Counted from the stretch's first letter, positions 21,970 to 37,029 are shown. The stretch is 64,000 nucleotides of DNA from an uncultured Acidobacteriaceae bacterium (GCA_963815555.1 CAWFHH010000002.1:334421-398420), one strand, 5' to 3'. Notes: generated by a model from the letters alone, not told the origin. Numbers and translations are program-made.

Positions 21970-23709
21970 ATGTTTTGTAGCCGAGCGTTTCGACTTTTAC
22001 TATGGCGGGGCTTCACCGCAGGGTTGCTGGCAGTGGCCCTGCCGGCGCGTGCGGCGACGGGTGCGCAGCCTGACTTCGGACCCAATGTGCTGATCTTCGG
22101 TCCGTCGATGTCATCGCAGGCGATCGAGAAGCAGATCGACGCGGTGTATGCCACGCAGGAGCACAATGAGTTTGGGCCACAGCGGAATGCGCTGCTGTTT
22201 CTACCCGGAAAGTATTCGGTAGACGTGCCGGTAGGCTTCTACACCGAGGTAATCGGGCTCGGCCCCTCACCGGATGCAACCCAGATCGCGGGCAACATGC
22301 ATGCCGATGCGAATCACGAACACAACAATGCAACCACGACCTTCTGGCGGGCCGCGGAAGGGCTCTCGGTAACGCCGTCGGGCGGCACCATGCAGTGGGC
22401 GGTTTCGCAGGCGGTGTCGCTGCGGCGCATGCACGTGCGCGGCGACCTGGTGCTGCACCAGCATCGCGGATGGGCAAGCGGGGGCTGGATGTCGGATTCG
22501 CTTGTCGACGGCAATGTCGACTCCGGCAGCCAGCAGCAGTGGATCTCGCGCAACTGCGCTTGGAAGAGTTGGACCGGGGCAAACTGGAACATGGTGTTTG
22601 TCGGCGTGGTGCACCCGCCGGAAGGTGAATGGCCTTCTCCCCCGTACACCAAGGTTGCGCGTACGCCAGTGGTGAGCGAGAAGCCCTTCCTCCAGGTGAA
22701 CCCAGCGGGCGAGTTCAGCGTACGGGTTCCCGATCTACGCCGCGACAGCGTCGGCACTACATGGAGCGGCGGGGAAACCGCGGGAGAGACGATTCCGATT
22801 GAACGGTTTTATCTTGCCCGCCCGGATGTCGATACAGCGGAGACGATCAACCAGCAGCTTGCGCGAGGCAAGAACCTGATCCTGACACCGGGGATCTACG
22901 AACTGACCGCGCCCATTCGCGTGACACGGCCGCATACCGTGGTACTGGGATTGGGCTTCGCGACGCTACGTCCTGTGAAGGGCACGGCGGCGATGACGAC
23001 TGCCGATGCCGATGGGATCGAGATTGCCGGGCTGCTCTTTGATGCTGGGCCGAGCGAGTCTCCCGTGCTTCTCGAGGTCGGGCCAGAGGGAAGTCGGGCG
23101 CGCCACGAAAAGCAGCCAATCACGCTGCACGATATTTTCTTTCGCGTAGGCGGTGCAGGGGTGGGCCGGGCCAAGGTTAATTTAAGAATCAACAGCAACG
23201 ACACCCTGGTCGACCATACGTGGATCTGGAGAGCGGACCATGGCGCCGGAGTGGGCTGGAAGTTGAATACCAGCCAGAATGGACTGGTGGTGAATGGAAA
23301 CCAGGTCACGATCTATGGCTTGTTTGTCGAGCATCACCAGCAATTCCAGGTTCTGTGGAATGGAAATGGCGGGAGAACGTATTTTTACCAGTCCGAGATT
23401 CCTTACGATCCTCCGGACCAGGCCAGCTATACCAGCGCGCCGGGGGTAAACGGGTGGGCTTCGTACAAGGTGGCGGATGCAGTGACGAGTCATGAAGCGT
23501 GGGGACTAGGGATATACAGCGTCTTCCAACATCCGGATGTGGTGCTGACCCGGGCCATCGAGACGCCGAAGAACCCGGAGGTGCGGTTCCACGACATGAT
23601 TACCGTGGCGCTGGGCGATCATGGCGAAATCACCCATGTGATCGACGACACAGGCGAGGCAACCGCCATGAATCCTCGCGTGACCCCGAAGGTGACTAAC
23701 TTTCCGTGA
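21970..23709 (+). CDS. secreted protein, probably right-handed beta-helix/glycoside-hydrolase-like. The family is not confidently recognised.
   Basis: Start MFCSRAFRLLLWRGFTAGLLAVALPARA (signal peptide). Long coding-quality ORF. The function call is weak. Confidence 0.7.
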   Translation: MFCSRAFRLLLWRGFTAGLLAVALPARAATGAQPDFGPNVLIFGPSMSSQAIEKQIDAVYATQEHNEFGPQRNALLFLPGKYSVDVPVGFYTEVIGLGPSPDATQIAGNMHADANHEHNNATTTFWRAAEGLSVTPSGGTMQWAVSQAVSLRRMHVRGDLVLHQHRGWASGGWMSDSLVDGNVDSGSQQQWISRNCAWKSWTGANWNMVFVGVVHPPEGEWPSPPYTKVARTPVVSEKPFLQVNPAGEFSVRVPDLRRDSVGTTWSGGETAGETIPIERFYLARPDVDTAETINQQLARGKNLILTPGIYELTAPIRVTRPHTVVLGLGFATLRPVKGTAAMTTADADGIEIAGLLFDAGPSESPVLLEVGPEGSRARHEKQPITLHDIFFRVGGAGVGRAKVNLRINSNDTLVDHTWIWRADHGAGVGWKLNTSQNGLVVNGNQVTIYGLFVEHHQQFQVLWNGNGGRTYFYQSEIPYDPPDQASYTSAPGVNGWASYKVADAVTSHEAWGLGIYSVFQHPDVVLTRAIETPKNPEVRFHDMITVALGDHGEITHVIDDTGEATAMNPRVTPKVTNFP

Positions 23710-23826
23710 GCCGTGAAGGGCTGCGTCCCTTCGTGAATTCACGATTCCGAGTCCCGGCAAGGGACGGCATGGGATGGCGAGGGCGTGGGCACGGACCGCG
23801 CAGGCCAGGGACGCTTACCGGTCCGC

Positions 23827-24540
23827 CTAAGCAGCCGCAGCCGACGACGCTGCACCCGCCAACGGCTTTGGCTTGGCTCCCACGATCAGAAGCCATAGCA
23901 TGAAGAAGATCTCTCCGAATCCAAGCGGCATCATCCATCGGGAGACGATGTGGCCGTAATGTGGCATCAGCAAGAACGTGAAACTGTCGACCAGATAGGT
24001 GAAGCAATTCAGTATCAACAGCACCCCCAGGATGCGGGGAATAAAGCCGGAGCGGTAGACCAGCAGTCCGAGTGGGACGAGCCACAGACCCCAGAAGATT
24101 TCGGCGACATCGAATCCCCTGCCATGCAGATTGAGGAACAGCATGGCCAGGGCCTCCCGCTGCGGCTTTTCCATGACGGAGAGGAAATCGGCCCCACGCA
24201 CCAGGATGAGGGCAGCGATGGCGTTCAACTCATTCAGCAACGCGATCGGAACCGAGACCGCGAACAAGGTCAACATGAGCGAGGCTTGCCGCTGGTTCAC
24301 TCCTTTCAACAGGTCGTACAGAACCAGCGCGACCCACAGAAAAAGGGTTTGGCAGATGAGATTGCTGGCGATGCCGAGGCGAAACAGCCCCTCGTGGGCA
24401 GCGATGTTGCCGGCCGTCGCCGCTGCGTTGCCGTGCACGATCAACTTTCCGGGAACATACATCAGGGAGAAAAAGCCGGGGATCGAGACCAGCACGTACA
24501 GCAAACCTGCGAATCGGCCTGGATTCCTGGTGAAACTCAT
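23827..24540 (-). CDS. DUF4386 family membrane protein
   Basis: 237-aa polytopic protein. FAGLLYVLVSIPGFFSLMYVPGKLIV and AATAGNIAAHEGLFRLGIAS resemble DUF4386. Confidence 0.7.
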   Translation of the reverse strand: MSFTRNPGRFAGLLYVLVSIPGFFSLMYVPGKLIVHGNAAATAGNIAAHEGLFRLGIASNLICQTLFLWVALVLYDLLKGVNQRQASLMLTLFAVSVPIALLNELNAIAALILVRGADFLSVMEKPQREALAMLFLNLHGRGFDVAEIFWGLWLVPLGLLVYRSGFIPRILGVLLILNCFTYLVDSFTFLLMPHYGHIVSRWMMPLGFGEIFFMLWLLIVGAKPKPLAGAASSAAAA

Positions 24541-24841
24541 GTGCGCCTCGCTAGCGGCAGTTTAGCCTGAGGTACGTTGAAGATTGTTAAGAAAGTTCCG
24601 ACAAGCGCAAAGCACGCAGCGCGAACGAAACGGACGAAAGCTCTTGGGCACTTATGAGTTAGCGATGTAGCACGTCGGTATGCCGTTGAACCTGCAAAAA
24701 GGCAACGCGAATCGGGGTGTTTCCGGAGCAAGAATGTGGTAGAAATAGAGCCGATCTTGGCGCATTCGGTCCGGTTTCCCGCAGGATTGCGCTGCCGCTG
24801 CGAACCATCACGATCGCACCCGATGGTGCGAAGGAGGTACC

Positions 24842-25417
24842 GTGAGACGCTGGCTTTCTGTAACTGCCCTGGTCGCCGCGCTGCTGGGCTGCACACCGTT
24901 GGCACGCGCCGGCATTCTCCCCTCGTTAAGCACAACCATTACCATGGACTGCACACCTGCCGCGACCTTCTGCAACTTCAATCCCGGCAGTCTGGGCTCT
25001 CCAGAACAAGGGATGGCCAATTTCAATCCGGTTGCTCCCGGCTGGAGTGCCGATTTCAAATCGGCTCCGGCAATTTCATGGGGCGTTTTTGTCGGCGTCT
25101 ATCAGGCGGAGTTTGGCCCCGGGGGAGACTTCTCGATCGCTGCACCGGATGGTATGGAGTTTCTGGGGACGCTCACATCGGGCATCGCTTTCGAGTTCCC
25201 CGTTGGATTTATACAGACTGTCGCCTCCTTCCAGGGATACTGGAACAACGGGTTGTATGCGAACGGGGTCATGGTGGAGGATCCCTTCGGCCTCAATGGA
25301 CCGTTCGTAACTCTGTCGGTGACCACGACAGCAACGCCCGAACCGGGTAGCTTCTTCCTCTTCGGCTCTGCACTCGCCGGGCTTGCGGGCATTTTCAGAA
25401 GAACTTTCCCTGGATGA
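24842..25417 (+). CDS. PEP-CTERM sorting-domain protein
   Basis: GTG start with AAGGAGG upstream and a signal peptide. C-terminus TPEPGSFFLFGSALAGLAGIFRR (PEP motif, TM segment, basic tail). Confidence 0.8.
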   Translation: MRRWLSVTALVAALLGCTPLARAGILPSLSTTITMDCTPAATFCNFNPGSLGSPEQGMANFNPVAPGWSADFKSAPAISWGVFVGVYQAEFGPGGDFSIAAPDGMEFLGTLTSGIAFEFPVGFIQTVASFQGYWNNGLYANGVMVEDPFGLNGPFVTLSVTTTATPEPGSFFLFGSALAGLAGIFRRTFPG

Positions 25418-26021
25418 GGAGTAGTCGATCCATCCGTTGATTCGAGCGTTGTTCAGAACCCTTGGTCTTCAAGTTTAGCCGAACACGTTGCCCAGAAGCA
25501 CTGCGCAGGACAGTTCTGTCCGGTGACACCGTCTTCCACCCTGATAGATTTCAGCTCACGACGGCATGGCGTGTCCCGTTGCTAAACCATTTCTTGGCTG
25601 GTTCACCCGACCAAGACCCATTTCCACTTTTCCTCCCCATCCTTTGAAACTATGCGTCGACTGCCTGCACCAGCAGCGGTCTGGAGCGACGCCGGCCGCG
25701 AGCTTGTCCCGCGACAGCAAAGCTGGGCTGCTTCCACGGCTGCGTAGTTCTGCTAGCGTCTGTGGGATTCTTTATGCGAACACACGGAAGATATCCGCAC
25801 CGTGTGGACCCGAAGAGTTGCTACCGAAGCACCCGCAAGGCCTAAGTAATCCTCTATCGCGTATCGCGTCGAAGTTCATGGAGTCAACAGTTCAGGACCT
25901 TCTGACCCAACCCGTACACCTGAGTGCACAAAGGTGCCATTGACATTGCGCCGGAGTGGCACATAATGACGTTGTCCTCTCCCGCCATTCCCCCACCTTC
26001 CAGCGGCAGGACAAGACCCGA

Positions 26022-26864
26022 ATGTGGAAGCTCAGGAGATATCTCGTGCGCCTGTTCTGCGTTTGCCTGCTCCTCCAACTTTCTGCCTTAAGTCTTCATG
26101 CCAGTGTTCTTGGAAGCGCCGACGCCTTTGGTGTTCTGGGCGCCTCCGCTGTCACCAACACCGGCTTCAGCGTCGTCGATCAGGACCTCGGGGTCGCACC
26201 CGGGACCTCGATCACCGGATTTCCTCCTGGCAAGGTGCTAGGGACCATTCATGACGATGATGCCGTCGCCTCACAGGCGCAGGCTGACGCGCTGACTGGC
26301 TATAACTTCCTGGCAGGTTTGTCACCCACACAGGTTTTGACCGGTCAGGATCTCGGCGGCCTGACGCTGGATTCCGGCGTCTACTTCTTTGCCTCCTCGG
26401 CCCAGCTCACCGGACAGCTCACCCTCGACTTTCAGGGATTGAGCAACGCGATGATCGTCTTCCAGATTGGCAGCACGCTGACTACAGCCAGCGCCTCATC
26501 GGTCCTCGTTATCAACGGAGGGGCGAACGATCAGGTCTTCTGGCAGGTAGGCAGTTCGGCCACGCTTGGAACCACGACCGCCTTCTACGGGAGTGTTATC
26601 GCCGACCAGAGCATCACGCTCACAACCGGCGCGACGATTAATTGTGGGCGGGCTATCGCTTTAAATGGGGCCGTTACCATGGATACCAACACCATTGACA
26701 CGGGGAATTGCGCTGGCATCAAAACCACCACGCCCGAGCCCGCGACCTTATCGCTCGTCGCCACCGGAGCCGTTGCCGCGGCTACGACCACATGGTCCAC
26801 TGATTTTATCGGACTCGGCATGGCTGGCATGCTGGCTGCAATCCGCAGAAAGCTACTCCGATGA
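26022..26864 (+). CDS. ice-binding-like (DUF3494) protein with a PEP-CTERM-type anchor
   Basis: LGSADAFGVLGASAVTNTG, DLGVAPGTSITGFPPG, GGLTLDSGVYFF and AIALNGAVTMDTN are DUF3494 beta-solenoid motifs. The C-terminus has TPEPATLSLV...GMLAAIRRKLLR. Confidence 0.8.
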   Translation: MWKLRRYLVRLFCVCLLLQLSALSLHASVLGSADAFGVLGASAVTNTGFSVVDQDLGVAPGTSITGFPPGKVLGTIHDDDAVASQAQADALTGYNFLAGLSPTQVLTGQDLGGLTLDSGVYFFASSAQLTGQLTLDFQGLSNAMIVFQIGSTLTTASASSVLVINGGANDQVFWQVGSSATLGTTTAFYGSVIADQSITLTTGATINCGRAIALNGAVTMDTNTIDTGNCAGIKTTTPEPATLSLVATGAVAAATTTWSTDFIGLGMAGMLAAIRRKLLR

Positions 26865-26919
26865 AGCTTGCCTGAGTGATCAGGAAGCAGGGTAGGACAA
26901 TTCGAGATACTCGATCCTG

Positions 26920-26956
26920 GGTTGCTGCCTGCGAAGTTGGCAGCAACCTTTCTTTG
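26920..26956 (+). terminator. rho-independent terminator after the DUF3494 gene
   Basis: GGTTGCTGCC-N9-GGCAGCAACC followed by TTTCTTTG. Confidence 0.6.
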
Positions 26957-27030
26957 ATTGTGTTTTCGCATAGAGGCAGCCCCATCCCATCCCATCTCGT
27001 CGTGCGCCTCGGGCGATCCGCCGAGATACC

Positions 27031-27171
27031 AAAAAGAAGGACCCGGAGGAGGTCTCATCCGGGTCCATGGCCGCCCTTGGAATCAGTCTTACTTCATTGC
27101 GACCACGACGAGTTCCGCTGAGGCAGGACCCGAGTTCGAGGCGCGCAGTTCCTTCTCCAACTTGGTCTCCG
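27031..27171. repeat. 141-bp direct repeat, copy 1: an orphan 3' gene fragment plus terminator hairpin
   Basis: About 95% identical to 28649-28790. On the minus strand it encodes ...ETKLEKELRASNSGPASAELVVVAMK-stop. The hairpin GGACCCGGA-N10-TCCGGGTCC plus a T-run follows. Confidence 0.85.
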
Positions 27172-27288
27172 CCAGCTTTTGAAAGTCTGCGCGACTAGCC
27201 TACACCAGCACCGGCGTGGAAGCGGGGGCGGGCGCGAAGTGCCGTCGCGACAGAAACGAGCGGCCACGACCGGAAAATTCGGTCCTGC

Positions 27289-28467
27289 TTACCCGAGCAG
27301 CTTGAGCATGCGGATTAGTTCAGCGGTCGGCGTTGCATACAGAAGAACGGGAACCATTGGGAGTGCCGCTGAGATTGCCAACGTGATAAGCGTCGGCTTG
27401 TCGATGGGAACCAGTCGCATTTGTCTGACAACCGCGAAGCTGCTTCCCAGGTCGGCGAGGGACGAGGCGTCGGGGTTTCCCAGGAGCATCTCGCCCGCAG
27501 GATGTTCTTGCCGGATCCACTTCTGTTCGAACATCTGGTCATGGAGGGTCACTACAGCACCATATGCCAGCATCCCTTTTCTTTTGACCTTGAGCAGGAC
27601 GGGCGCAACCACCAGCAGGGGCAAGATCAGAAAGATAATGGCCAGAACTCCGTAGGCGATCATTATAAATTTCGTCGATGAGAGGGAAGCTCCCTGGTAC
27701 GCAATGGCATTGCCGACCTCGCCGGCAATGACAGCTCCCCCGGCAAAGACGATTGGGCTGAATGCCTTTTGCCCTTCGGAGAGGAAACCCAGACCCGCTG
27801 CCATGTCGGTGTGGGTGGCAACCAGGAACAGGTTGAGTCGCGAGACGCTCCACAGCAACGAGCTCCACAGCAACATCCTCCACATCCACCTCAACAGAAG
27901 AAACCGGAAGATCGGCGTGCTGACGTAATTAAACCACTCGCCGGCCACACTCATTCCGCCCGACGGCAGTCGATGCCAATTGGATGTCCCGGTCATCAGT
28001 AGCTCGGTCTTAACCACGAAGATAGAAGTGAGGATCGCGGCAATCGCCAACAAAACTTCCGGCAAGTCTCGATCGCGCCACCGAATTGTTCTTTCCAGCA
28101 CCGCTTCAAAGGAGGGGAGAGTTTTTTCGTCGACTAATCCGGATCGAAGAAATTCAACAACCAGGTTGCGCCATCGATGATCAATGTTTGATTCGGCCAG
28201 TATGAGGATGGGAACCGCAATCAAGAAACGGACGTTCACCGCCAGGTCCCGAACGAACGGAATCTGGATATGCCTTCCCCAGGCCAATCCTTGCAAGGCG
28301 GACAAGAGAAGCAAAGGGACCCACGTTATCGCAGTAGTGGCTAGCGCTCGACGTACGACCAGGAGCCGTTCGCTCCAGGAGCTTTCGAGACGAGCCAGGA
28401 CCCGATGCAGTGGGCCGCCGTCGGTGATCGAGAAATTTTCCGCTACCAGGGACTTTACCGGAGTCAT
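27289..28467 (-). CDS. polytopic membrane protein of unknown function
   Basis: 392-aa ORF with several hydrophobic segments and coding-like GC3. No family recognised. Confidence 0.7.
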   Translation of the reverse strand: MTPVKSLVAENFSITDGGPLHRVLARLESSWSERLLVVRRALATTAITWVPLLLLSALQGLAWGRHIQIPFVRDLAVNVRFLIAVPILILAESNIDHRWRNLVVEFLRSGLVDEKTLPSFEAVLERTIRWRDRDLPEVLLAIAAILTSIFVVKTELLMTGTSNWHRLPSGGMSVAGEWFNYVSTPIFRFLLLRWMWRMLLWSSLLWSVSRLNLFLVATHTDMAAGLGFLSEGQKAFSPIVFAGGAVIAGEVGNAIAYQGASLSSTKFIMIAYGVLAIIFLILPLLVVAPVLLKVKRKGMLAYGAVVTLHDQMFEQKWIRQEHPAGEMLLGNPDASSLADLGSSFAVVRQMRLVPIDKPTLITLAISAALPMVPVLLYATPTAELIRMLKLLG

Positions 28468-28648
28468 GAATGGCTACCCAATGGGCCGCATCGTCCGTGT
28501 CAGGAGACGTAATGGTCTCACGTGAGAAAGCAATGCGCCGAACCATACTACCTTGAGTGATCAGGACAGGGGATTCTGCTAGGTAAGGAAACGTCGGCAT
28601 CCCATTCGAGTATCTGGTTGTGGGGGTCGCGCAGAGGCGCTGAGGTAC

Positions 28649-28790
28649 AAAAGGAAGGACCCGGAGGAGGTCTCATCCGGGTCCATGGCCGCCCTTGGAA
28701 TCAGTCTTACTTCATTGCGACCACGACGAGTTCCCCTGAGGCAGGAGCCGAGTTCGAGGCGCGCAGTTCTTTCTCCAACTTGGTTTCCGG
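28649..28790. repeat. 141-bp direct repeat, copy 2: the genuine 3' end and terminator of gene 28707-29120
   Basis: See copy 1. The minus-strand terminator hairpin is at 28657-28684, with the T-run complement at 28648-28656. Confidence 0.85.
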
Positions 28791-29120
28791 AATCACCATG
28801 CCCTCGGTTCCGGAAGCATCCCAGATCTCCACCAGGATGTAAGTGTCTCCATACTTGTGAAACACCATCTTCGGCGCCGAGGCCTTGAGCCTCTCATCGT
28901 TACGGTAGGTGCTCAAAATGGCTGAGCCCGCGTCACCGTTCTGGAGCAGGAACGCATGATCGGCGGCAGGGCGAACCGTGTAGCTTCCCGCCGGCAAGGA
29001 TACATTTCCAACGCGGAATGCGAAAGGCACATCGGCTTTTACCTTGTTCTGGGCAAAGCTGGAAATGGTTAGAAGTGACAGAGCCACCATCGTCAGGGCC
29101 ACGATAACATTGCGTTTCAT
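28707..29120 (-). CDS. small secreted hypothetical protein (137 aa)
   Basis: Start MKRNVIVALTMVALSLLTISSFAQ at 29120, with AGGAGGAG upstream. The longer ORF to 29417 lacks support. Confidence 0.7.
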   Translation of the reverse strand: MKRNVIVALTMVALSLLTISSFAQNKVKADVPFAFRVGNVSLPAGSYTVRPAADHAFLLQNGDAGSAILSTYRNDERLKASAPKMVFHKYGDTYILVEIWDASGTEGMVIPETKLEKELRASNSAPASGELVVVAMK

Positions 29121-29578
29121 AACTCCTCCTCTTTGGGGGCTCCTCACAGTGGAACCCAAACTGAAGTTTGGTCGCTTGGGAAGCGCTTGGCTTCCGTTGC
29201 TGCTTACGCCTTTACCTAGAGCAGTTCGTGCGCCAAAGCGGGGACGCCGTACGCGACGGCTCGCAATCAGGCGGTAGTCTCCGTATTTGCAACGAGATCG
29301 GATACCACGGCAACCTTCCGGCCGGGTCCCACTCCTTGCCTTGAACGGCAATTCAAGGAGCCGAACGGATACCCTCAGAACGGCTTGGCTCCCCGCCAAT
29401 CCGTACCCCCCCGACACCCATTCCTGCCCAAGCGAAGGCTTTCTCCTTCATGTCGACGCGCTCGCAGCAGAGGCCCGCTCCAGAAATCTTGGAGGTGCAT
29501 GGAGGAATTCGCCGGTACATGTCGCATATGTAAGTGAGGGGAGAACGCCAGAGACTTCCGACCTCCGTGGAGGACCAA

Positions 29579-30724
29579 ATGCCAAGCACTAGAACTCCCG
29601 TCTCGTCACCCAGCACGATCGATGCAAATCGCTTCAACTTTTCCGGCGGCCCCGGGGCTCTGCCGGAGAGTGTCCTGGAGCAGACGGAGCGCGCGATTCG
29701 GCAGGTGCCGGGACAGGCTCTCTCGGTGCTCGGCATGAGCCATCGCTCACGCTGGTTTCGCGAAGTGGTGGAAGAAGCCGAGTCGAATATCCGCGAATTA
29801 CTCCGCGTCCCCACCGATTACCACGTCCTGTTTCTACAAGGCGGCGGAACGCTGCAGTTCTCCATGGTCCCCATGAGCTTCCTGCGCGGTACCGGCCTCG
29901 TGGCGGAGTACCTTCACACCGGCTACTGGAGCGGGAAGGCAATCGCCGAGGCGCGTCGCGAAGGACAAGTGCGGGTGCTGTGGAGCGGCGAGGAGAATGG
30001 TTTTCGCCAACTGCCTCGCGAAGAGGAGCTCACTTTCGACGCCAGCGCCGCCTACTTCCACTACGTTTCCAATGAGACGGTCGAGGGCCTCCAATTCCAT
30101 CGTGCTCCCTGGCGGCAGAATGTCCTGCAAATTTGCGACATGTCTTCGGACTTCCTGAGCCGGCCGTTCGACGTGAGCCGCTTTGGATTGATCTACGCCC
30201 ACGCCCAGAAGAACCTTGGCCCCGCGGGAGTCACCGTGGTGGTGGTGCACGACGACTTGCTCCGCCGCATTCCCGACAATCTGCCGGGCATGTTGGACTA
30301 CAGGAACCACGCCGGGGCCGGATCGATCTACAACACGGCGCCGGTCTTCGCGATTTACGTGACCATGCTGGTAACCCGGTGGCTCCGCGACGAAATCGGC
30401 AGCGTGGAGGCGATGCATTTACTGAATACCGCCAAGGCTCAGCGCGTGTACGCCGCCATCGACAACAGCAACGGCTTCTACCAGGGCCACGCCGCCGCCG
30501 AGGACCGCTCCTTGATGAATGTCGCTTTCCGGATGCCCACCGAGGAGCTTGAACACAAGTTTTTGGAACTCGCCCAGATCGCCGGCTTCCACGGTCTTGC
30601 CGGACACCGCTCGCTGGGCGGCGTGCGCGCCTCGCTCTACAACGCCGTGACGCTCGAGGCGGTCGAGGCCCTTTGCCGGTTCATGGAATTCTTTCACGAT
30701 ACGCATCGCGAGGAGGCGGCCTAG
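29579..30724 (+). CDS. serC: phosphoserine aminotransferase
   Basis: NFSGGPGALPESVLEQ, LGMSHRSRWF, LFLQGGGTLQF and the KNLGPAG (PLP-Lys) blocks are typical of SerC. Confidence 0.9.
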   Translation: MPSTRTPVSSPSTIDANRFNFSGGPGALPESVLEQTERAIRQVPGQALSVLGMSHRSRWFREVVEEAESNIRELLRVPTDYHVLFLQGGGTLQFSMVPMSFLRGTGLVAEYLHTGYWSGKAIAEARREGQVRVLWSGEENGFRQLPREEELTFDASAAYFHYVSNETVEGLQFHRAPWRQNVLQICDMSSDFLSRPFDVSRFGLIYAHAQKNLGPAGVTVVVVHDDLLRRIPDNLPGMLDYRNHAGAGSIYNTAPVFAIYVTMLVTRWLRDEIGSVEAMHLLNTAKAQRVYAAIDNSNGFYQGHAAAEDRSLMNVAFRMPTEELEHKFLELAQIAGFHGLAGHRSLGGVRASLYNAVTLEAVEALCRFMEFFHDTHREEAA

Positions 30725-30726
30725 CC

Positions 30727-31590
30727 ATGAAGCTTGAACCTGTTGTCCAGGAAGCCTGCTGGCCCGAAATTCGCAATGCCCTGATCGCTTTTTTCTGGCA
30801 GAGCCGGCCCCACGTCATCCACGGAACCACCGAAGTCGATGTCACCGACAGCCTGGCGGCCATTCGCCGGATCGAAAAAGACCTGCGCATTGCGATTTCC
30901 TTTCACGCCTTTGTCGTCTATTGCGCGGTGCAGGCCGCCATGCAGCATCCCGTGATGCATACCTATCGCCACGGGAAAAAGCTGCTGACCTTCGAGGACA
31001 TCGACATTCTCTCGCCCATCGACAAGCGACTTCCCGCCGGAGTCCGAATTCCCGTCGGCCACATCATTCGCGCTGCCCAGAACAAGACGCTGGCGCAGAT
31101 CAATTGGGAGATACGGCAGGCGGTGCGAGCTTCGGATCTGGCCGAGGATCCGGCGGTGCAGGCGCGCCGCAGGCTGGCGCGCTATCCCGGTTGGATTCGA
31201 CGCATCGTTGCCTGGCGCATCAAGCGCGATCCGTACTGGTTGAAGCGCATCAGCGGCACACTGCTGGTTACCAATGTGCAAAGCCATGGCGCGGGCAATC
31301 CCTCGTTCGCCATCGCCGGCACGGTCCACACCACGTCGATCGCCATTGGAAACATCACCAACCGGCTGCAGCTGGATGCGGAAGGGAAGGTGGTGCAGCG
31401 AAAGATGCTTTGCCTGGCGGGCTCGGCCGATCACGACATCGTTGACGGCATGGGCATCGCTCGCTTCGCTCACCTGCTCACCCGCTTGCTCGAGACCGGC
31501 GCCGGACTCGACGAAGGTTTTGTGCGCGAAACTCGAAAGCTGATGAAGGAGACCAACCGTGAACACGATCGTGTCACCGTCCATTCCTGA
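30727..31590 (+). CDS. stand-alone 2-oxoacid dehydrogenase acyltransferase-like (CAT-fold) catalytic domain protein
   Basis: The ATG is 2 nt after the serC stop. The C-terminal motif SADHDIVDGMGIARF matches the DHxxxDG catalytic motif of E2/CAT-fold acyltransferases. No lipoyl or E3-binding domain. Confidence 0.65.
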   Translation: MKLEPVVQEACWPEIRNALIAFFWQSRPHVIHGTTEVDVTDSLAAIRRIEKDLRIAISFHAFVVYCAVQAAMQHPVMHTYRHGKKLLTFEDIDILSPIDKRLPAGVRIPVGHIIRAAQNKTLAQINWEIRQAVRASDLAEDPAVQARRRLARYPGWIRRIVAWRIKRDPYWLKRISGTLLVTNVQSHGAGNPSFAIAGTVHTTSIAIGNITNRLQLDAEGKVVQRKMLCLAGSADHDIVDGMGIARFAHLLTRLLETGAGLDEGFVRETRKLMKETNREHDRVTVHS

Positions 31591-32989
31591 CGCCGAGGTA
31601 TCGCCACGCGAAGATGTCGCGCGACCGGCTCCCGCTGCGTCTACCTCCCGGCCTATTCCGAGCGCCGACACCCATTGGCTGCTGGGAAGCGCGAAGGAGT
31701 TTGCCCATGCTCCCCATCGGTTCGTCGCCGAGCAGGGCAGGCGCAACGGAGGCTTGACGAAGTTTCGCGTTCTTCACAAACGTTTTCTGGCGACTGCCAG
31801 CCCCGAGGTCGCCAATCACATCCTGGTCTCGCATCGCGAGCACTACGAAAGAAGCGCGCATTACAAGCGGCTGGCGATGGTCATCGGGAACGGCCTGGCT
31901 GCCAGCGAGGGCAATACCTGGCGCAAGCGCCGGGCCTTGATTAATCCGCTGCTGCGTGGTGAGCATTTGAAACAGCTGGTTCCCACCGTGTGCGATTCAG
32001 TATGTGAAGTGCTGAGGGATTGGGAAGACAAGCGGGTGAACGGAACCGCGGTCGAACTCGTGAGCGAAACCCAGCGGCTGGCCATGGGTGCAATCAGCCG
32101 CATGCTGCTGTCTACGGATATTGGCGCGGACGCGTCGTATCGCATGGGAAACGCCATGCGTGAGGCCATGCGGCTCTTGCGCGAATACAACACTTCGCTC
32201 TTTCCCATCCCACTGTCTTGTCCCGTACACCGGAATCGCAGGTTGAACGGCCATCGCGAAACCCTGGACCGTTTTATCGATTCGCATATCCGATCGCGCC
32301 AGGCAAACGGACAGCCCGGGCAGCCCGACTTTCTGAGCGTGCTGATGTCGGCAAAGGATCCCGATAGCGGAGAGCCGTTGCCGCAGCAGGCGCTCATCGA
32401 CGAAACCAAGACCCTCTTCATCGCCGGCTTTGAGACTACCGCCAGCGTGATGGCGTGGGCCCTCTATCTGTTGGCTTCGCATCCCGAGTGCGCCGCCAAG
32501 TGGCACGAAGAAGTCGACCGCGTGCTGCAAGGCCGGATGCCGCAGTGGGACGACTTGCCCCGGCTTCCCTATATTGCGCAGATTATCCAGGAGACCATGC
32601 GCCTGTATCCACCGGGGTACAACCTGGCGCGGCAGTGTGTCCGGGAAGACCGCATCGGTGACTACATAATTCCGAAGTCAGCGACGATCTTGATCTCGGT
32701 CTACGGAATTCATCGTGACCCGGCGTGGGGCCCCAACCCCGAAGAGTTTCGGCCGCAGCGCTTTGCCCACAAGGCGAACGTCCCTCGCACGGCCTACATG
32801 CCGTTCGCTACCGGCAAGCATATTTGCGTGGGAAACGACTTCACCATGACGGAGATGATCACCACGCTCGCCATCCTCGGCCAGCGCTACCGGTTGGTTC
32901 GCGCGGACGAGGAGCCAGTCGAAGCCAAAGCACAAATCGGACTGATACCGTCCCGCGCCATTCCCATGTATCTGGAGAAAAGAGGATGA
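31559..32989 (+). CDS. cytochrome P450
   Basis: Heme-binding loop FATGKHICVGNDF, ExxR (ETMRLYPP) and I-helix FIAGFETTAS. The GTG start overlaps the upstream gene by 32 nt. Confidence 0.9.
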   Translation: MNTIVSPSIPDAEVSPREDVARPAPAASTSRPIPSADTHWLLGSAKEFAHAPHRFVAEQGRRNGGLTKFRVLHKRFLATASPEVANHILVSHREHYERSAHYKRLAMVIGNGLAASEGNTWRKRRALINPLLRGEHLKQLVPTVCDSVCEVLRDWEDKRVNGTAVELVSETQRLAMGAISRMLLSTDIGADASYRMGNAMREAMRLLREYNTSLFPIPLSCPVHRNRRLNGHRETLDRFIDSHIRSRQANGQPGQPDFLSVLMSAKDPDSGEPLPQQALIDETKTLFIAGFETTASVMAWALYLLASHPECAAKWHEEVDRVLQGRMPQWDDLPRLPYIAQIIQETMRLYPPGYNLARQCVREDRIGDYIIPKSATILISVYGIHRDPAWGPNPEEFRPQRFAHKANVPRTAYMPFATGKHICVGNDFTMTEMITTLAILGQRYRLVRADEEPVEAKAQIGLIPSRAIPMYLEKRG

Positions 32990-33519
32990 GCGACCTTACC
33001 TTTGAAGTCCTGGATACCGCCAGCGACGCGGTGCGCGAATACGAGTCGGCCTTCTACCAATCATTCGCCAAGGTGGAGACCAACCGGTTGGTCCGCAACC
33101 TGTGGCACTGGGACACCGATGCACGCCGGATCAGGACACGCGTACCCTACGAAGACCAGGTGATTTGTGCCCTGCGGAATCAGACCGGCCAGTTCCTTTT
33201 GACCATGGCCTTCAACGTCGAACTGCGCCAATTCCAGGCAGCGGCCTATGGCTTCGCGCCTCCGCAAGCGTCTGCGGGGACGTTCGAGGTCCTGACATTT
33301 TTTACTCCCGCGGCACAGACGCTCGATGTGTGTGCCGGCTTTTGGTCGAACTGTCTCGCCGTGCTGCGTGGCCGCGGACTCACCGCCGGCTACGCCACCA
33401 CGGCGCGGCGTCCTCTGCCCATGTATCGCCGCGTGGGCTGGCGAGTCCTGCAGGAACAGGAAATCGAAGCCGAGAAGCGCTATTTCTTGCGGTATGAAGT
33501 CCCGCCGTGCAGACCGTAA
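32986..33519 (+). CDS. small (177 aa) hypothetical protein, possibly GNAT/acyl-amino-acid-synthase-like
   Basis: ATGA overlap with the P450 stop. PLPMYRRVGW resembles the acetyltransferase-fold beta-bulge region. The function call is weak. Confidence 0.55.
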   Translation: MSDLTFEVLDTASDAVREYESAFYQSFAKVETNRLVRNLWHWDTDARRIRTRVPYEDQVICALRNQTGQFLLTMAFNVELRQFQAAAYGFAPPQASAGTFEVLTFFTPAAQTLDVCAGFWSNCLAVLRGRGLTAGYATTARRPLPMYRRVGWRVLQEQEIEAEKRYFLRYEVPPCRP

Positions 33520-33664
33520 CCGAAAAGCTTGCTTCACCCCGTCTGCTCTCGCCCGCGGTCGAATCGGTCGCGAGCAGGGAATCGCTCGCATCGCCCGGGC
33601 CGCTTACGATGCGGCGACCGGGCGAGTCCAGGCTGCTCCTTGAGTATGGATGGGCAAGGCCGGG

Positions 33665-34006
33665 TCAGAGAAATCGCAGAAACTTGTTGTCGCCATCGAC
33701 CATGATCTGCTTTGTGGAGACCGGGTGGTCGGAGAGTTCGAACCCCATAACAATGACCTCTTCACCCTTCTTGATCAGCAGGGCTGCGGCCCCGTTCATG
33801 CATATCGTTCCCGAGCCGCGCACGCCCGGGATAACGTAGGTCTCCAGCCGCGCCCCCGAGGTGTTGCTGACCACCAGTACCTTCTCGCCATGCAGCAACC
33901 CCGCACGTTCGATGAGCGCTTCATCGATGGTAATGCTGCCTTCGTAATTCACATCGGCCTGGGTAACCGTTGCCTTATGAATTTTGGATCGTAAAAACCA
34001 CCGCAT
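33665..34006 (-). CDS. panD: aspartate 1-decarboxylase
   Basis: MRWFLRSKIHKATVTQADVNYEGSITID (with the self-processing G-S site) and ...GEKVLVVSNTSGARLETYVI. Confidence 0.9.
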   Translation of the reverse strand: MRWFLRSKIHKATVTQADVNYEGSITIDEALIERAGLLHGEKVLVVSNTSGARLETYVIPGVRGSGTICMNGAAALLIKKGEEVIVMGFELSDHPVSTKQIMVDGDNKFLRFL

Positions 34007-34228
34007 TCCGCCATCCTCTCCTGCTTCAATTCTAACTGGATGGCTCACACACGGTGTGAAGTGAACTACAAATTGATTGGAAAGGGCGGCCCCGCCCAGG
34101 AATGTCGCCCTTTTCCCGGAGCCGTTTGGCCAAGGCCCTCGATGTCCGGGCAGCGAGCAATTGTGACCAGATTTGCCGCTAGAGGAAGCCTATCCTTGGG
34201 TCTGGCCAATGTAATCAAGGAGATTTAA

Positions 34229-34600
34229 ATGACATCCAAGAAACTATTTGCTTTTGCTATGGGATCGCTCGTCGTGCTTGCCGTATCGCTGCCCGTAATG
34301 GCGCAGAGCACCACCGAATCCAGCACCACCACGACAACACCAGCTCCCGCGCAGACGCAGAGCACCACCACAACAACCACCAAGGATGCGACGCCGATGC
34401 CGGCGCAGACCACGCAGACGACGGATACCACCACGAAGTACAAGCATCATGGCAAACAGGTAAAGCAGACCAACACCAACACCACAACCACCACTCCTGC
34501 GCCGATGCCGAACGAGACCAAGCAGACCACGACCACCACCACTCCTGCGCCTGACGTGCAGAAGGAAACCACCACGACCACCACCACCGATCCCAAGTAG
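34229..34600 (+). CDS. secreted Thr-rich low-complexity protein
   Basis: AAGGAGA RBS and signal peptide MTSKKLFAFAMGSLVVLAVSLPVMAQ. The rest has T(5-7) runs alternating with PAP motifs. Confidence 0.6.
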   Translation: MTSKKLFAFAMGSLVVLAVSLPVMAQSTTESSTTTTTPAPAQTQSTTTTTTKDATPMPAQTTQTTDTTTKYKHHGKQVKQTNTNTTTTTPAPMPNETKQTTTTTTPAPDVQKETTTTTTTDPK

Positions 34601-34693
34601 CTATCGCGGGGGTAGGGTCGGCTGGTCCGGCCAAACAACTTCGATATCATCTTCGCCGCGTGCCGGGTGCCCCGCCAATCAACTTCTATACAT

Positions 34694-34900
34694 GGGTGCC
34701 CCGTTCTAGCGCGGTTTTCGCTAGGGCGGGGCCGGGCGCCCCGGGTCTCGCCGGTTTCGAGACTCGGGCGAGGCGCCCCATTCAAGCTTCTTTTGCTTGA
34801 GTGGGGATTTTGCGCGAGTGGCCTACTCTTTTCCGGTCTCTTCCCGCGCCTCTCAATGATGTGGGTGCCCCATCCAAGCCTGTCTTTGGCTTGGGTGGGA
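34694..34900. repeat. array of four family-B hairpins (G[GC]GCCCC-stem-TTT loop-stem-GGGG)
   Basis: Hairpins at 34694-34731, 34734-34770, 34771-34807 and 34863-34900. Confidence 0.7.
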
Positions 34901-34965
34901 GCGACGGACCTCATATCACCACCGCGAACTAGAACTTATAGCGGTTATCGGGCCTCGCCGGGTGC

Positions 34966-35104
34966 CTGGGACTCCATGCCCTCATGAGGGGAGTGGTCCG
35001 ATTGAACGAGCAGGATGGGCTGAAGCTGAAGTTTCTTCAACGAACGGTTCTCCCGTGTTAAGGCTTCGCCCAGGTCTCGGAAGACGCGAGACCCGGGGCA
35101 CCCG
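34966..35104. repeat. 139-bp structured repeat, copy A (family E)
   Basis: Roughly 85% identical by eye to 35506-35644, at exactly a 540-bp offset. Contains the palindrome CCCTCATGAGGG, the hairpin GAAG-TTT-CTTC and GGTCTCG-N6-CGAGACC. Confidence 0.8.
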
Positions 35105-35505
35105 TCCGTGCCAGCGCTTCAGACCTTAAGGCGGGTGGGTAGGATAGAAACTTTAGGTCGTGTTGTGTGTTGATGGACGGCACACCACAGTTCCGATGAC
35201 GAAGATAGTCCCAGTCTCGAACAGCGCCAAACCTGGGGCACCCGACCTATGACGTGCTTTCACGTTTCGCCTCACCGCACCGCCCTCCCACTTCACTCCA
35301 GTTACTTCCGTAATAGTTGCTTCGCTCTAGCGACATAGCTGCTCCGCTCTATTGACTACAACCCTCGCGCTTGTAAGCCTGCTAATAAGGAGTCGTGTGC
35401 CTGGAGGATGGCTAAAGTCTTCTATGGACGGGGTGAATATCTAGATGAAACTTATTGAGAGAAGTGCCACGAGCCGGGTGCCCCAGGTCTCGCGCGGTTC
35501 GAGAC

Positions 35506-35644
35506 CTGGGACTCCATGTCCTCATGAGGGGACTGGTCCGAGCGAACGAGTGGGATGGGCTGACGCTGAAGTTCCTTCAACGGACAGTTCTCCCGCGTTA
35601 GGGATTCGCCCGGATCTCGAAAGACGCGAGGCCCGGGGCACCCG
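35506..35644. repeat. 139-bp structured repeat, copy B (family E)
   Basis: See copy A. It is preceded by an extra hairpin CCAGGTCTCG-N7-CGAGACCTGG (35483-35509). Confidence 0.8.
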
Positions 35645-35687
35645 GCCTCGGTGGGCTAAAGGCCCACATGATTGAACGTTCGCATGC

Positions 35688-35708
35688 GGCACGACTAAAG
35701 TCGTGCCC
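35688..35708. repeat. REP hairpin, family A (GGCACGAC-loop-GTCGTGCC), inverted relative to the RAYT-proximal copies
   Basis: GGCACGAC-TAAAG-GTCGTGCC followed by CTGATACA. This is the reverse complement of the TATCAGGGCACGAC...GTCGTGCC copy at 37835-37860. Confidence 0.7.
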
Positions 35709-35741
35709 TGATACAAAGCGAGAAGTGAGAGCGAACCAACA

Positions 35742-35848
35742 ACTGACAACTGCAACAACTGAGAACTGACAACTGAGAACTGACAACTGAGAACTGACAA
35801 CTGAGAACTGAGAACTGAGAACTGAGAACTGAGAACTGACAACTGCAT
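35742..35848. repeat. heptanucleotide tandem repeat (AACTGAG/AACTGAC): 13 uninterrupted units plus 2 degenerate leading units
   Basis: Read directly. AACTGAC AACTGCA ac, then (AACTGAG AACTGAC)x3, AACTGAG x5, AACTGAC, AACTGCA. The array ends 5 nt before GGAG and 15 nt before the ATG at 35864. Confidence 0.95.
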
Positions 35849-35863
35849 TACTGGAGCTACTTC

Positions 35864-36565
35864 ATGGAAGACGAAATTCAGACCTGCAATCACATCAAAG
35901 AGAACGGAGCATTTTGTGGATCGCCGGCCCTGGCTGGCCGCGATTACTGCTACTTTCATCTCCGCCTGCGCGTGCGCGGTGTAGCCATGGCGCGTGCCCG
36001 GGCCCACGGCCAGCGCTGGCGTCTCGACCTGCCCGCGCTCGAGGACATGTACTCGGTGCAGGTTGCGCTCATGCGCGTCGTCGAGGCCCTGGCCGACGAT
36101 CAGATCGACACCCGCCGCGCCGGACTCATCCTGTATGGCCTGCAACAGGCCGCCACCAACCTGCGCGACGCGAATGCCTGGGGCGAGGACTGCAACCGCT
36201 TCGAGGTGAACGAGGATAGCGCCGGAGTTGCCGACGAGTATGACTGCATCGAAGCCGAGTTCGGCCTGCCCGAAGACGCCGAGGTGGACGACAGCCAGGG
36301 ATGGGCCTTTCCCACTCCCGAAATAGTGGGCGTCGCGTCAAAGTCTCCCTCCGTCAAGAATCCCACGGACCACGAGCAGGTCGCGGCGCTGCCGCCGGTC
36401 CCGCTGCCGGAAGCCACGCAGCCGGTAGCTGTTGAAGAATGCGTCGTGCCGAAGAAGCCTGCCCGCTCCGTGTCCGCCGAACCGGATGTGGCGCCGAAGA
36501 AGCCTTTGCGATCGGTGGCCGCAAGGCGCGGGCACCAGGTCACGCCGGCCGGCGAACGGGCTTAG
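35864..36565 (+). CDS. hypothetical protein with an N-terminal Cys/His cluster and an acidic/Pro-rich tail
   Basis: GGAG lies 6 nt upstream. N-terminus CNHIKENGAFCGSPALAGRDYCYFH (C-x-H-x7-C-x11-C-x2-H). Coding-like GC3. Confidence 0.6.
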   Translation: MEDEIQTCNHIKENGAFCGSPALAGRDYCYFHLRLRVRGVAMARARAHGQRWRLDLPALEDMYSVQVALMRVVEALADDQIDTRRAGLILYGLQQAATNLRDANAWGEDCNRFEVNEDSAGVADEYDCIEAEFGLPEDAEVDDSQGWAFPTPEIVGVASKSPSVKNPTDHEQVAALPPVPLPEATQPVAVEECVVPKKPARSVSAEPDVAPKKPLRSVAARRGHQVTPAGERA

Positions 36566-36870
36566 CCGCTGCAAGCTTATTCCCGCGCGGGGCGACACAT
36601 TCGGTAAGCAGCGGGGGAAAATCGGGCTCGGGACGAATCTGCGAATGCCATCCAGCGCGCAGGGTGGGACGAGTGTGCCCGATCGCGGCTTTAGAAATTG
36701 CGAAACTGAGTGACTGTCCGCCTGCGTCGCTTTCCGCGCCCTCGCGTGACCTGATTCGCAACGCCTTTTCGTCCAGCGGCCGCTTCCGGCGAATGACGGC
36801 GGCGCCAAGACACCGCTGAGCCAAGGGAGTGTACTTGAAGACGGCATCTAAGTCCTTTGTACTCAATATT

Positions 36871-36899
36871 TTGCCCTGTAACTCGTTTGGTTTTAATAT
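36871..36899 (+). promoter_or_regulatory. possible promoter upstream of scoA, with a flanking AATATTTTGC direct repeat
   Basis: TTGCCC, a 17-nt spacer, then TAATAT. AATATTTTGC occurs twice (36865-36874 and 36895-36904) in a locally AT-rich patch. Confidence 0.25.
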
Positions 36900-37029
36900 T
36901 TTGCGGGAAATTCGCCCGCTAAGTGATTGATTCCAGATCAAACGTCGAAGGGGCCTTCTTCCACTCGCCGCGATCGGCTCGGGCACAAACTGCCTGCTAC
37001 AATCGCGAGTTCGCTTCCGAGAAATTTCT

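What the first reader, a model, noticed from the sequence alone, without database searches (positions are those of the whole stretch)
29579..33519. serC translationally coupled to a CAT-fold acyltransferase, a cytochrome P450 and a small GNAT-like protein
Four genes are joined by a 2-nt gap, a 32-nt overlap and an ATGA overlap, so they are almost certainly co-translated. SerC is a housekeeping enzyme. Its downstream partners here are unusual:
- a stand-alone E2/chloramphenicol-acetyltransferase-fold catalytic domain (DHDIVDG motif, no lipoyl domain);
- a P450 with a canonical FxxGxxxCxG loop;
- a 177-aa protein with an acetyltransferase-like core.

An acyltransferase, an N-acyl synthase-like protein and a hydroxylase next to a serine-pathway enzyme could mean tailoring of an amino-acid-containing lipid or a small metabolite. 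That interpretation is speculative, and I cannot name a known pathway with this composition.
Basis: partly seen in the sequence, partly recalled or inferred. Interest (0 to 1): 0.6.

Follow-up and report, generated by a model that had tools for sequence, protein, structure and literature searches.

The report
Mobile four-gene acyl-serine lipid cassette
The "serC" here is not the cell's housekeeping serine gene: it is an imported extra copy that travels with three acyl-transfer and oxidation genes as a four-gene cassette, which probably makes an undescribed fatty-acyl (phospho)serine compound.

Summary
Four + strand genes (29579-33519) are joined by a 2-nt gap, a 32-nt overlap and an ATGA overlap. 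Each start has a Shine-Dalgarno sequence.

This SerC is not housekeeping:
- No SerC of this type was found in the same-genus genome or in any sampled genome of the same family.
- The native serine transaminase is a different class-V aminotransferase next to serA on another contig. It is inherited vertically.

The order SerC, lipoyl-less E2-fold acyltransferase, P450, 177-aa protein recurs in at least 19 loci, in Acidobacteriaceae, Bryobacteraceae, Opitutaceae and unnamed metagenome contigs. The flanks differ between loci.

The cassette SerC belongs to the beta/gammaproteobacterial PRK12462 type and keeps every catalytic and phosphate-binding residue. The small protein folds as a GNAT (pLDDT 90.8). 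It is closest to CoA-dependent LuxI-type synthases and has a sub-threshold link to FeeM N-acyl amino acid synthases.

Best reading: a horizontally spread pathway that N-acylates (phospho)serine, hydroxylates the product and acylates it again. The product is inferred, not shown.

This scan noted the same cassette before, in a verrucomicrobial genome (e1-5245000). I found no published description.

The parts
29418..29578 (+). Upstream intergenic region, divergent from the gene at 28707-29417 on the - strand. It holds the likely promoter, the conserved motif GTCGCATATGTAAGTGA (about 29505-29527) and the SD GGAGG.
   Evidence: Sequence. The motif and the start context are shared with loci L013-L015. 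No sigma-70 consensus match and no Rfam match.
29579..30724 (+). Cassette-borne phosphoserine aminotransferase, 381 aa, SerC of the PRK12462/NF009112 type.
   Evidence: NF009112 scores 583.5 bits against a cut-off of 563. PDB PSATs match at E 1e-101. H55, R56, W117, D187, Q210, K211, N252, T253, H343, R344 and R350 are invariant, and no cassette-specific residue was found. None was found in the same-genus genome or the sampled family genomes. It lies in a 100/100 clade with proteobacterial SerC.
30727..31590 (+). Stand-alone E2/CAT-fold acyltransferase, 287 aa, with no lipoyl or subunit-binding domain. It has an extra helical insert (about residues 142-176) and a C-terminal helix.
   Evidence: PF00198 scores 65 bits. 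DHDIVDG and GT..VT are conserved. AlphaFold pLDDT is 85.2. Foldseek best matches are E2 catalytic cores, E 3.5e-14, TMt 0.7-0.8. Not found in 40 relatives.
31559..32989 (+). Cytochrome P450, 476 aa, E-class, CYP170/CYP97/CYP102/CYP3-like. No redox partner lies in the cassette.
   Evidence: PF00067 scores 277.9 bits. Nearest PDB entries are 7wzl, 3dbg (CYP170A1), CYP97A3, CYP102 and CYP3A. The motifs AGFETT, ETMRL and FATGKHICVG are present in the translation.
32986..33519 (+). GNAT-fold protein of 177 aa from an uncurated family: a LuxI/FeeM-like putative N-acyltransferase.
   Evidence: AlphaFold pLDDT 90.8, pTM 0.87. Foldseek best TM-scores are to the CoA-dependent AHL synthases RpaI, MesI and BjaI, TMq 0.71-0.75. 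Orthologues in L050 and L051 hit Pfam FeeM at 25.8 and 17.5 bits against a cut-off of 27. E101, E20, F27, Y147 and G151 are nearly invariant.

Best explanation
This is a horizontally transferred four-gene biosynthetic cassette, transcribed and translated as one unit. It is not a housekeeping serC with neighbours.

Shown:
- The order is always PSAT (SerC), then lipoyl-less E2-fold acyltransferase, then P450, then a LuxI/FeeM-like GNAT, with overlapping or abutting reading frames.
- The unit recurs in at least 19 loci with unrelated flanks, in at least two phyla.
- The host lineage has its own, different phosphoserine transaminase beside serA.

Inferred mechanism:
1. The cassette SerC, which is unchanged in all catalytic and phosphate-binding residues, raises the pool of O-phospho-L-serine (or, after dephosphorylation, serine).
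2. The GNAT N-acylates that amino acid from an acyl-CoA or acyl-ACP.
3. The P450, fed by a host ferredoxin system, hydroxylates the product, most simply on the acyl chain.
4. The E2-fold enzyme uses its His/Thr dyad to move a second acyl group from acyl-CoA onto the new hydroxyl or another nucleophile.

The product would be an oxidised, doubly acylated (phospho)serine lipid or signal. The logic parallels the two-step OlsB/OlsA and GlsB/GlsA aminolipid pathways, but with different enzymes.
For: Cassette conservation. Seventeen loci carry all four genes and two more carry the last three.

Flanks are not conserved. There is no synteny with the same-genus genome across window 22000-36900.

SerC is foreign to the lineage:
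- None was found in the same-genus genome or in sampled same-family genomes.
- In the tree, cassette and beta/gammaproteobacterial SerC share a 100/100 branch of length 0.79, away from Acidobacteriota SerC.
- The nearest named relatives are from Rhodocyclaceae, Gallionella and Competibacteraceae, at about 65% identity.

Native alternative: an AGXT-type aminotransferase directly upstream of serA.
- It is 96% identical in the same genus and 54-73% across the family and order.
- It is missing in G027, the one sampled relative that has an ordinary SerC. G007 and G013 lack both types at these thresholds.

SerC is catalytically canonical. It is dispensable for the other three genes:
- Two genomes carry the trio with no SerC anywhere.
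- One cassette serC has an in-frame stop.
This fits a precursor-supply role.

Against: - No product, substrate or transcript has been observed.
- The window's small protein has no significant hit to FeeM or any curated family. Only 2 of 58 family members reach FeeM at E <= 0.01.
- The order of steps, the acyl donors, the site of P450 attack and the acceptor of the E2-fold enzyme are all guesses.
- The cassette has no SerA, SerB, ACP, acyl-CoA ligase, exporter or redox partner.
- SerC enzymes also handle 4-phosphohydroxythreonine, so the head group need not be serine.
- Several copies are decaying (L007, L017, L018), so the cassette may often be dispensable.
Confidence: 0.5

Rival explanations
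1. Chance adjacency. An ordinary housekeeping serC happens to have an accessory three-gene operon inserted downstream, with no functional link between SerC and the trio.
For: - SerC is catalytically indistinguishable from housekeeping enzymes.
- Two genomes keep the trio without SerC.
- In the locus L054 the cassette lies next to core genes (rpsO, pnp), so there it could double as the cell's only SerC.
Against: - The host family does not use this SerC type at all and has its own transaminase beside serA.
- SerC is joined to the trio in 17 of 19 loci, across two phyla, with unrelated flanks.
- The cassette SerC is of proteobacterial type, not Acidobacteriota type.
Confidence: 0.07
2. An acyl-homoserine-lactone-like quorum signal synthase. 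The small protein would work like a CoA-dependent LuxI enzyme: it acylates an amino acid that carries a leaving group and cyclises or eliminates it. With O-phosphoserine the product would be an N-acyl serine beta-lactone or an N-acyl dehydroalanine. The P450 and the E2-fold enzyme would tailor the diffusible signal rather than build a membrane lipid.
For: - The best structural matches by TM-score are the CoA-dependent AHL synthases RpaI, MesI and BjaI, TMq 0.71-0.75.
- A dedicated PSAT makes most sense if phosphoserine itself, with its leaving group, is the substrate. No SerB accompanies the cassette in any locus.
Against: - No LuxR-type receptor or other sensor is conserved beside the cassette.
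- There is no hit to the autoinducer synthase family in Pfam or NCBIfam.
- By my reading of the alignments, the conserved N-terminal Arg/Phe/Trp/Asp pattern of LuxI enzymes is not reproduced.
- The chemistry is speculative.
Confidence: 0.15
3. A catabolic or detoxifying module. The P450 hydroxylates an exogenous compound, the two acyltransferases conjugate it, and SerC serves unrelated nitrogen or serine metabolism.
For: P450s of the CYP102/CYP3-like group often act on xenobiotics and fatty acids. The cassette has no exporter and no carrier protein.
Against: - Translational coupling of all four genes is conserved across phyla.
- No regulator, transporter or downstream catabolic gene is conserved.
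- A canonical PSAT has no evident place in such a route.
Confidence: 0.08

Closest known systems
[quoted passage not shown]
   Same: - A small GNAT/LuxI-fold N-acyltransferase is the likely core enzyme.
- It is accompanied by tailoring enzymes in a compact, mobile cluster.
- Orthologues of the small protein approach the FeeM model (25.8 bits).
   Different: - The window protein does not reach the FeeM model at all.
- Its partners are a PSAT, an E2-fold acyltransferase and a P450, not ThiF, a nitroreductase or flavin oxidases.
- The amino acid is probably (phospho)serine, not tyrosine.
Two-step aminolipid pathways: OlsB/OlsA (ornithine lipids) and GlsB/GlsA (glycine and serine-glycine lipids of Bacteroidota; described in PMC12479983 and reviewed in PMC11631085)
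   Same: The proposed logic is the same: N-acylation of an amino acid, followed by O-acylation of a hydroxyl on the first acyl chain, giving a glycerol-free diacyl lipid.
   Different: - In the known pathways the hydroxyl comes from a 3-hydroxyacyl donor. Here a P450 would install it.
- The known O-acyltransferase is of the PlsC type. Here it is an E2/CAT fold.
- A dedicated precursor-supply transaminase is not part of the known pathways.
E2 (dihydrolipoyl acyltransferase) cores of 2-oxoacid dehydrogenase complexes
   Same: Same catalytic-domain fold (Foldseek E 3.5e-14). The DH..DG histidine motif and the Ser/Thr position are conserved.
   Different: - It has no lipoyl domain, no subunit-binding domain and no E1/E3 genes nearby.
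- It has an extra helical insert and a C-terminal helix.
- All NCBIfam E2 models score far below their cut-offs.
Beta/gammaproteobacterial housekeeping SerC (NCBIfam NF009112, PRK12462)
   Same: The score is over the family cut-off. It shares a clade with these enzymes. All active-site residues are kept.
   Different: It sits in Acidobacteriota and Verrucomicrobiota genomes as part of a mobile cassette. In this genome it duplicates the function of a native, unrelated transaminase.

Membership tests
Phosphoserine aminotransferase, SerC type (NF009112 / TIGR01364) | Score above the curated equivalog cut-off | tested here: met
   NF009112 scores 583.5 against 563, and NF003764 scores 444 against 253. 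TIGR01364 scores 434.6 against 443.6, just under its cut-off.
Phosphoserine aminotransferase, SerC type (NF009112 / TIGR01364) | PLP lysine plus the phosphate- and carboxylate-binding His-Arg pairs and Arg | tested here: met
   K211, H55-R56, H343-R344 and R350 are invariant across 53 of the 54 cassette and housekeeping sequences (the long-branch L009 was left out).
Phosphoserine aminotransferase, SerC type (NF009112 / TIGR01364) | Catalyses 3-phosphohydroxypyruvate to phosphoserine | not testable with these tools
   This needs an enzyme assay or complementation of a serC mutant of a laboratory E. coli strain.
2-oxoacid dehydrogenase E2 component | Catalytic domain with the DH..DG histidine and the Ser/Thr | tested here: met
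   PF00198 scores 65 bits. D235, H236, D240 and G241 are invariant and T182 is nearly invariant. Fold match.
2-oxoacid dehydrogenase E2 component | N-terminal lipoyl domain(s) and a peripheral-subunit-binding domain, with E1/E3 partners | tested here: not met
   The 287-aa protein is a catalytic domain only. Equivalog models score 12-35 bits against cut-offs of 378-722. No E1 or E3 gene lies in any of the loci.
FeeM-type N-acyl amino acid synthase (Pfam PF21926) | Score above the Pfam gathering threshold (27 bits) | tested here: not met
   The window protein has no hit, even at E <= 5. The best orthologue reaches 25.8 bits. Two of 58 family members reach E <= 0.01.
FeeM-type N-acyl amino acid synthase (Pfam PF21926) | GNAT fold of the LuxI/FeeM sub-type | tested here: met
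   pLDDT 90.8. Top TM-scores of 0.71-0.75 are to LuxI-type CoA-dependent synthases, and generic GNATs follow. FeeM itself (2g0b) was not among the 50 rows shown.
FeeM-type N-acyl amino acid synthase (Pfam PF21926) | N-acylates a free amino acid from acyl-ACP or acyl-CoA | not testable with these tools
   This needs an in-vitro assay or heterologous expression with LC-MS.
LuxI-type acyl-homoserine lactone synthase (PF00765) | Match to the autoinducer synthase model, and a cognate LuxR nearby | tested here: not met
   No Pfam or NCBIfam hit. No conserved neighbouring regulator.
Cytochrome P450 | Full-length PF00067 match with the Cys-ligand loop, EXXR and the I-helix acid-alcohol pair | tested here: met
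   277.9 bits over profile positions 3-447 of 462. FATGKHICVG, ETMR and AGFETT are in the translation. CYP family naming was not possible with these tools.

The most novel reading that the evidence does not exclude
The cassette makes a new class of glycerol-free phospholipid-like molecules or signals built directly on O-phosphoserine. Its own PSAT feeds phosphoserine to a LuxI/FeeM-like enzyme. A P450-installed hydroxyl and an E2-fold O-acyltransferase then add a second chain. In the alternative version, the phosphate serves as a leaving group, as methylthioadenosine does in AHL synthesis, giving an N-acyl serine beta-lactone or an N-acyl dehydroalanine. Either way it would be a new use of the E2 catalytic fold outside dehydrogenase complexes.
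Probability: 0.2. Interest if true: 0.8.

Novelty: new variant of a known kind. Interest (0 to 1): 0.55.

Why it matters
- **Annotation.** A gene that every annotation pipeline would label as primary-metabolism serC is here a pathway-specific, horizontally moving precursor-supply gene. The real housekeeping enzyme of the lineage is a non-orthologous transaminase beside serA. This matters for metabolic reconstruction of Acidobacteriaceae.
- **Discovery.** The cassette is compact (3.9 kb, four genes, no carrier proteins). It is spread across soil Acidobacteriota and Verrucomicrobiota, and I found no description of it in the literature searched. That makes it an easy target for heterologous expression to find a new lipoamino acid or signal.
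- **Enzymology.** It could assign functions to two uncurated families: a stand-alone E2-fold acyltransferase, and a GNAT family with 333 clusters at 50% identity.

Tried and rejected
- **Housekeeping serC with an insertion downstream.** Rejected by the absence of this SerC type from the sampled relatives, by the native transaminase-serA pair, and by the tree.
- **Clues from distant stand-alone E2-fold relatives** (30-40% identity; Kribbella, Chloroflexi, Anaerolineae). Their neighbourhoods are unrelated to each other and to the cassette, so they give no functional lead.
- **Cassette-specific residues in SerC** that might signal a changed substrate. None were found.
- **Flanking repeats, tRNA-type insertion marks and composition.** No bounding repeats. 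GC and GC3 are like those of core genes, so the transfer is not recent, or came from similar genomes.
- **Riboswitch or known RNA upstream.** None.
- **Promoter and terminator scan.** No more sites than expected by chance, and none at the gene junctions.
- **Profile search of the small-protein family against PDB sequences.** Nothing significant.
- **Literature searches** for this gene combination. No paper found. N-acyl amino acid papers describe other cluster types.
- **First genome-contig scan** with a 24-sequence alignment. It failed for lack of a conserved stretch. It worked with 12 closer sequences.
Full report
**Observation**

The junctions, read from the sequence:
- The serC stop TAG is at 30722-30724, followed by CC and then ATG at 30727, with GAGGAGG just upstream.
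- The acyltransferase stop TGA is at 31588-31590. The P450 begins at GTG 31559, seven bases after AAGGAG, which gives a 32-nt overlap. The only other in-frame start, GTG 31571, also overlaps.
- The P450 stop and the last gene's start share ATGA at 32986-32989.

ATG 29579 and its GGAGG are conserved in related loci. The same tight junctions appear in independent gene calls of seven other loci.

**What the four proteins are**

*Gene 1: phosphoserine aminotransferase.*
- It scores 583.5 bits on the NCBIfam equivalog NF009112 (PRK12462), against a cut-off of 563.
- It aligns over its full length to solved PSATs at E about 1e-101.
- The PLP lysine (K211), the two His-Arg phosphate-binding pairs (H55-R56, H343-R344) and R350 are invariant.
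- No column distinguishes cassette copies from housekeeping enzymes.

*Gene 2: E2 catalytic domain only.*
- PF00198 scores 65 bits.
- DHDIVDG is invariant at D235, H236, D240 and G241. The GT...T block keeps a Thr at the E2 Ser position.
- AlphaFold gives pLDDT 85.2. Foldseek matches E2 cores at E 3.5e-14.
- Helices at about residues 142-176 and 263-281 are additional to the E2 core.

*Gene 3: full-length E-class P450* (277.9 bits). The nearest solved relatives are 7wzl, CYP170A1, CYP97A3, CYP102 and CYP3A.

*Gene 4: a GNAT-fold protein with no curated family*.
- It folds confidently as a GNAT, with pLDDT 90.8 and pTM 0.87.
- The highest TM-scores (0.71-0.75) are to the CoA-dependent LuxI-type synthases RpaI, MesI and BjaI. 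Ordinary GNATs follow.
- Orthologues at 36-41% identity from other cassettes hit the Pfam FeeM N-acyl amino acid synthase model at 25.8 and 17.5 bits, against a cut-off of 27.
- The family is large: 333 clusters at 50% identity. Only 2 of 58 sampled members reach FeeM at E <= 0.01. It is therefore an uncurated family that resembles FeeM/LuxI enzymes but is not a member by the curated test.

**SerC is not the housekeeping gene**

This is the only SerC-type gene over cut-off in the genome. However:
- Neither the same-genus genome nor any sampled genome of the same family has a SerC of this type at all (0/15, 0/22; the two samples share some genomes).
- About half of the sampled genomes of the phylum have one, but at no more than 53% identity.
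- The genome's serA (568.6 bits) lies at C7:302272-303846 on the - strand.
- Directly upstream of serA, on the same strand, is a 397-aa class-V aminotransferase of the AGXT/BhcA-like type.
- That enzyme is inherited vertically. It is 96% identical in the same genus, 63-73% in the family and 54-58% in the order.
- It is missing from G027, the one order-level relative that has an ordinary SerC. Two family genomes (G007, G013) lack both types at these thresholds.

By position and by this complementary distribution, I infer that the AGXT-type enzyme is the native phosphoserine transaminase.

**A conserved, mobile cassette**

Homologues of the acyltransferase, the small protein and SerC led to the same four genes in the same order in:
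- eight complete Acidobacteriaceae MAG loci (L010, L013-L017, L019, L020);
- one 5'-cut copy (L018);
- a Bryobacteraceae MAG (L022);
- an Opitutaceae MAG (L050);
- six unnamed metagenome contigs (L005, L006, L007, L051, L052, L054), one of them 8 Mb long.

Clustering of all flanking ORFs shows that only the four genes are shared.

In the same-genus genome, synteny with this window starts only at scoA (window 36994). Nothing from 22000-36900 is collinear. The acyltransferase was not found in 40 relatives.

In a maximum-likelihood tree, the cassette SerCs and the beta/gammaproteobacterial housekeeping SerCs share a 100/100 branch of length 0.79. That branch separates them from the SerCs of other Acidobacteriota. 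A proteobacterial member of this clade sits in a context without the trio.

Within that clade the cassette copies form several groups that are not resolved from one another, so I do not claim a single origin or a donor. Composition is like that of core genes and there are no bounding repeats.

**SerC is an accessory to the other three genes**

- Two Acidobacteriaceae genomes carry the last three genes with no SerC-type gene anywhere (L011, L012).
- One cassette serC has an in-frame TGA.
- Together with the unchanged active site, this fits a precursor-supply role that the native transaminase can cover.
- No locus carries serA or serB. This mildly favours phosphoserine itself over serine as the building block. 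That is inference.

**Mechanism**

The shown and inferred steps are set out under the best explanation. In brief:
1. The PSAT supplies (phospho)serine.
2. The LuxI/FeeM-like GNAT N-acylates it.
3. The P450 hydroxylates the product.
4. The E2-fold enzyme adds a second acyl group.

The logic resembles OlsB/OlsA and GlsB/GlsA aminolipid synthesis (described in PMC12479983). Known N-acyl amino acid clusters use other partners: ThiF-like and nitroreductase enzymes in the stieleriacine-type pathways (PMC12479983). None of my literature searches found this gene combination.

**Rivals**

- Chance adjacency is largely excluded for this genome.
- An AHL-like signal route, in which phosphate acts as the leaving group, is compatible with the structural matches. 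It lacks a receptor and the family signature.
- A detoxification role has little support.

**Limits**

- The product is unknown.
- The CYP family could not be named.
- The genome-contig scan used two peptide patterns, so the number of carriers is a lower bound.

**Earlier scan note**

Note e1-5245000 describes the same four-gene cassette in a verrucomicrobial genome and reaches a similar reading. I found it after my own analysis and treat it as agreement, not as independent evidence. New here:
- the demonstration in an Acidobacteriaceae genome that the lineage's native transaminase is a different enzyme beside serA;
- the genomes that carry the trio alone;
- the residue-level test showing no change in the SerC active site.

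Noticed in passing
own genome, contig C7:302272-305255 (locus L002 covers part of it): The native serine-pathway pair is an AGXT/BhcA-like class-V aminotransferase (397 aa) directly upstream of serA on the - strand. It is vertically conserved, and it is absent from G027, the one sampled relative that has an ordinary SerC (two other relatives lack both).
   Followed up: partly
window 29505-29527: The motif GTCGCATATGTAAGTGA, about 50-70 nt before the serC start, is shared with the cassettes of L013-L015 but not with those of L005, L017, L019 or L020. It may be a promoter or an operator.
   Followed up: no
L013 and L018 (the same MAG contig, CAWJAO010000011.1): Two cassette copies lie head-to-head about 8 kb apart. 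One is decayed, with a 5'-truncated serC and a frameshifted P450.
   Followed up: partly
L006:8260-8457: A 65-aa ORF between the P450 and the small gene matches the C-terminal end of the P450 (residues 415-473). It is a duplicated fragment.
   Followed up: no
L021 (2.6-kb contig of a 'Dyella sp.' MAG): This cassette fragment is 75-81% identical at the protein level to the Acidobacteriaceae copies. The contig is probably mis-binned rather than evidence of a gammaproteobacterial carrier.
   Followed up: no
window 22000-36900: This stretch has no collinearity with the same-genus genome. Only scattered pieces match elsewhere (the ice-binding-like gene, the Thr-rich protein gene, REP-like repeats). 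Synteny resumes at scoA (36994). The cassette therefore lies in a variable, repeat-rich region.
   Followed up: partly
L007:4910-8727: A cassette copy with frameshifts in both serC and the small gene, followed by a second, more distant P450 (33% identity).
   Followed up: no
window 33520-33650: GC-rich hairpin-forming inverted repeats lie directly after the stop of the last gene. They are REP-like, not a canonical T-tailed terminator.
   Followed up: no
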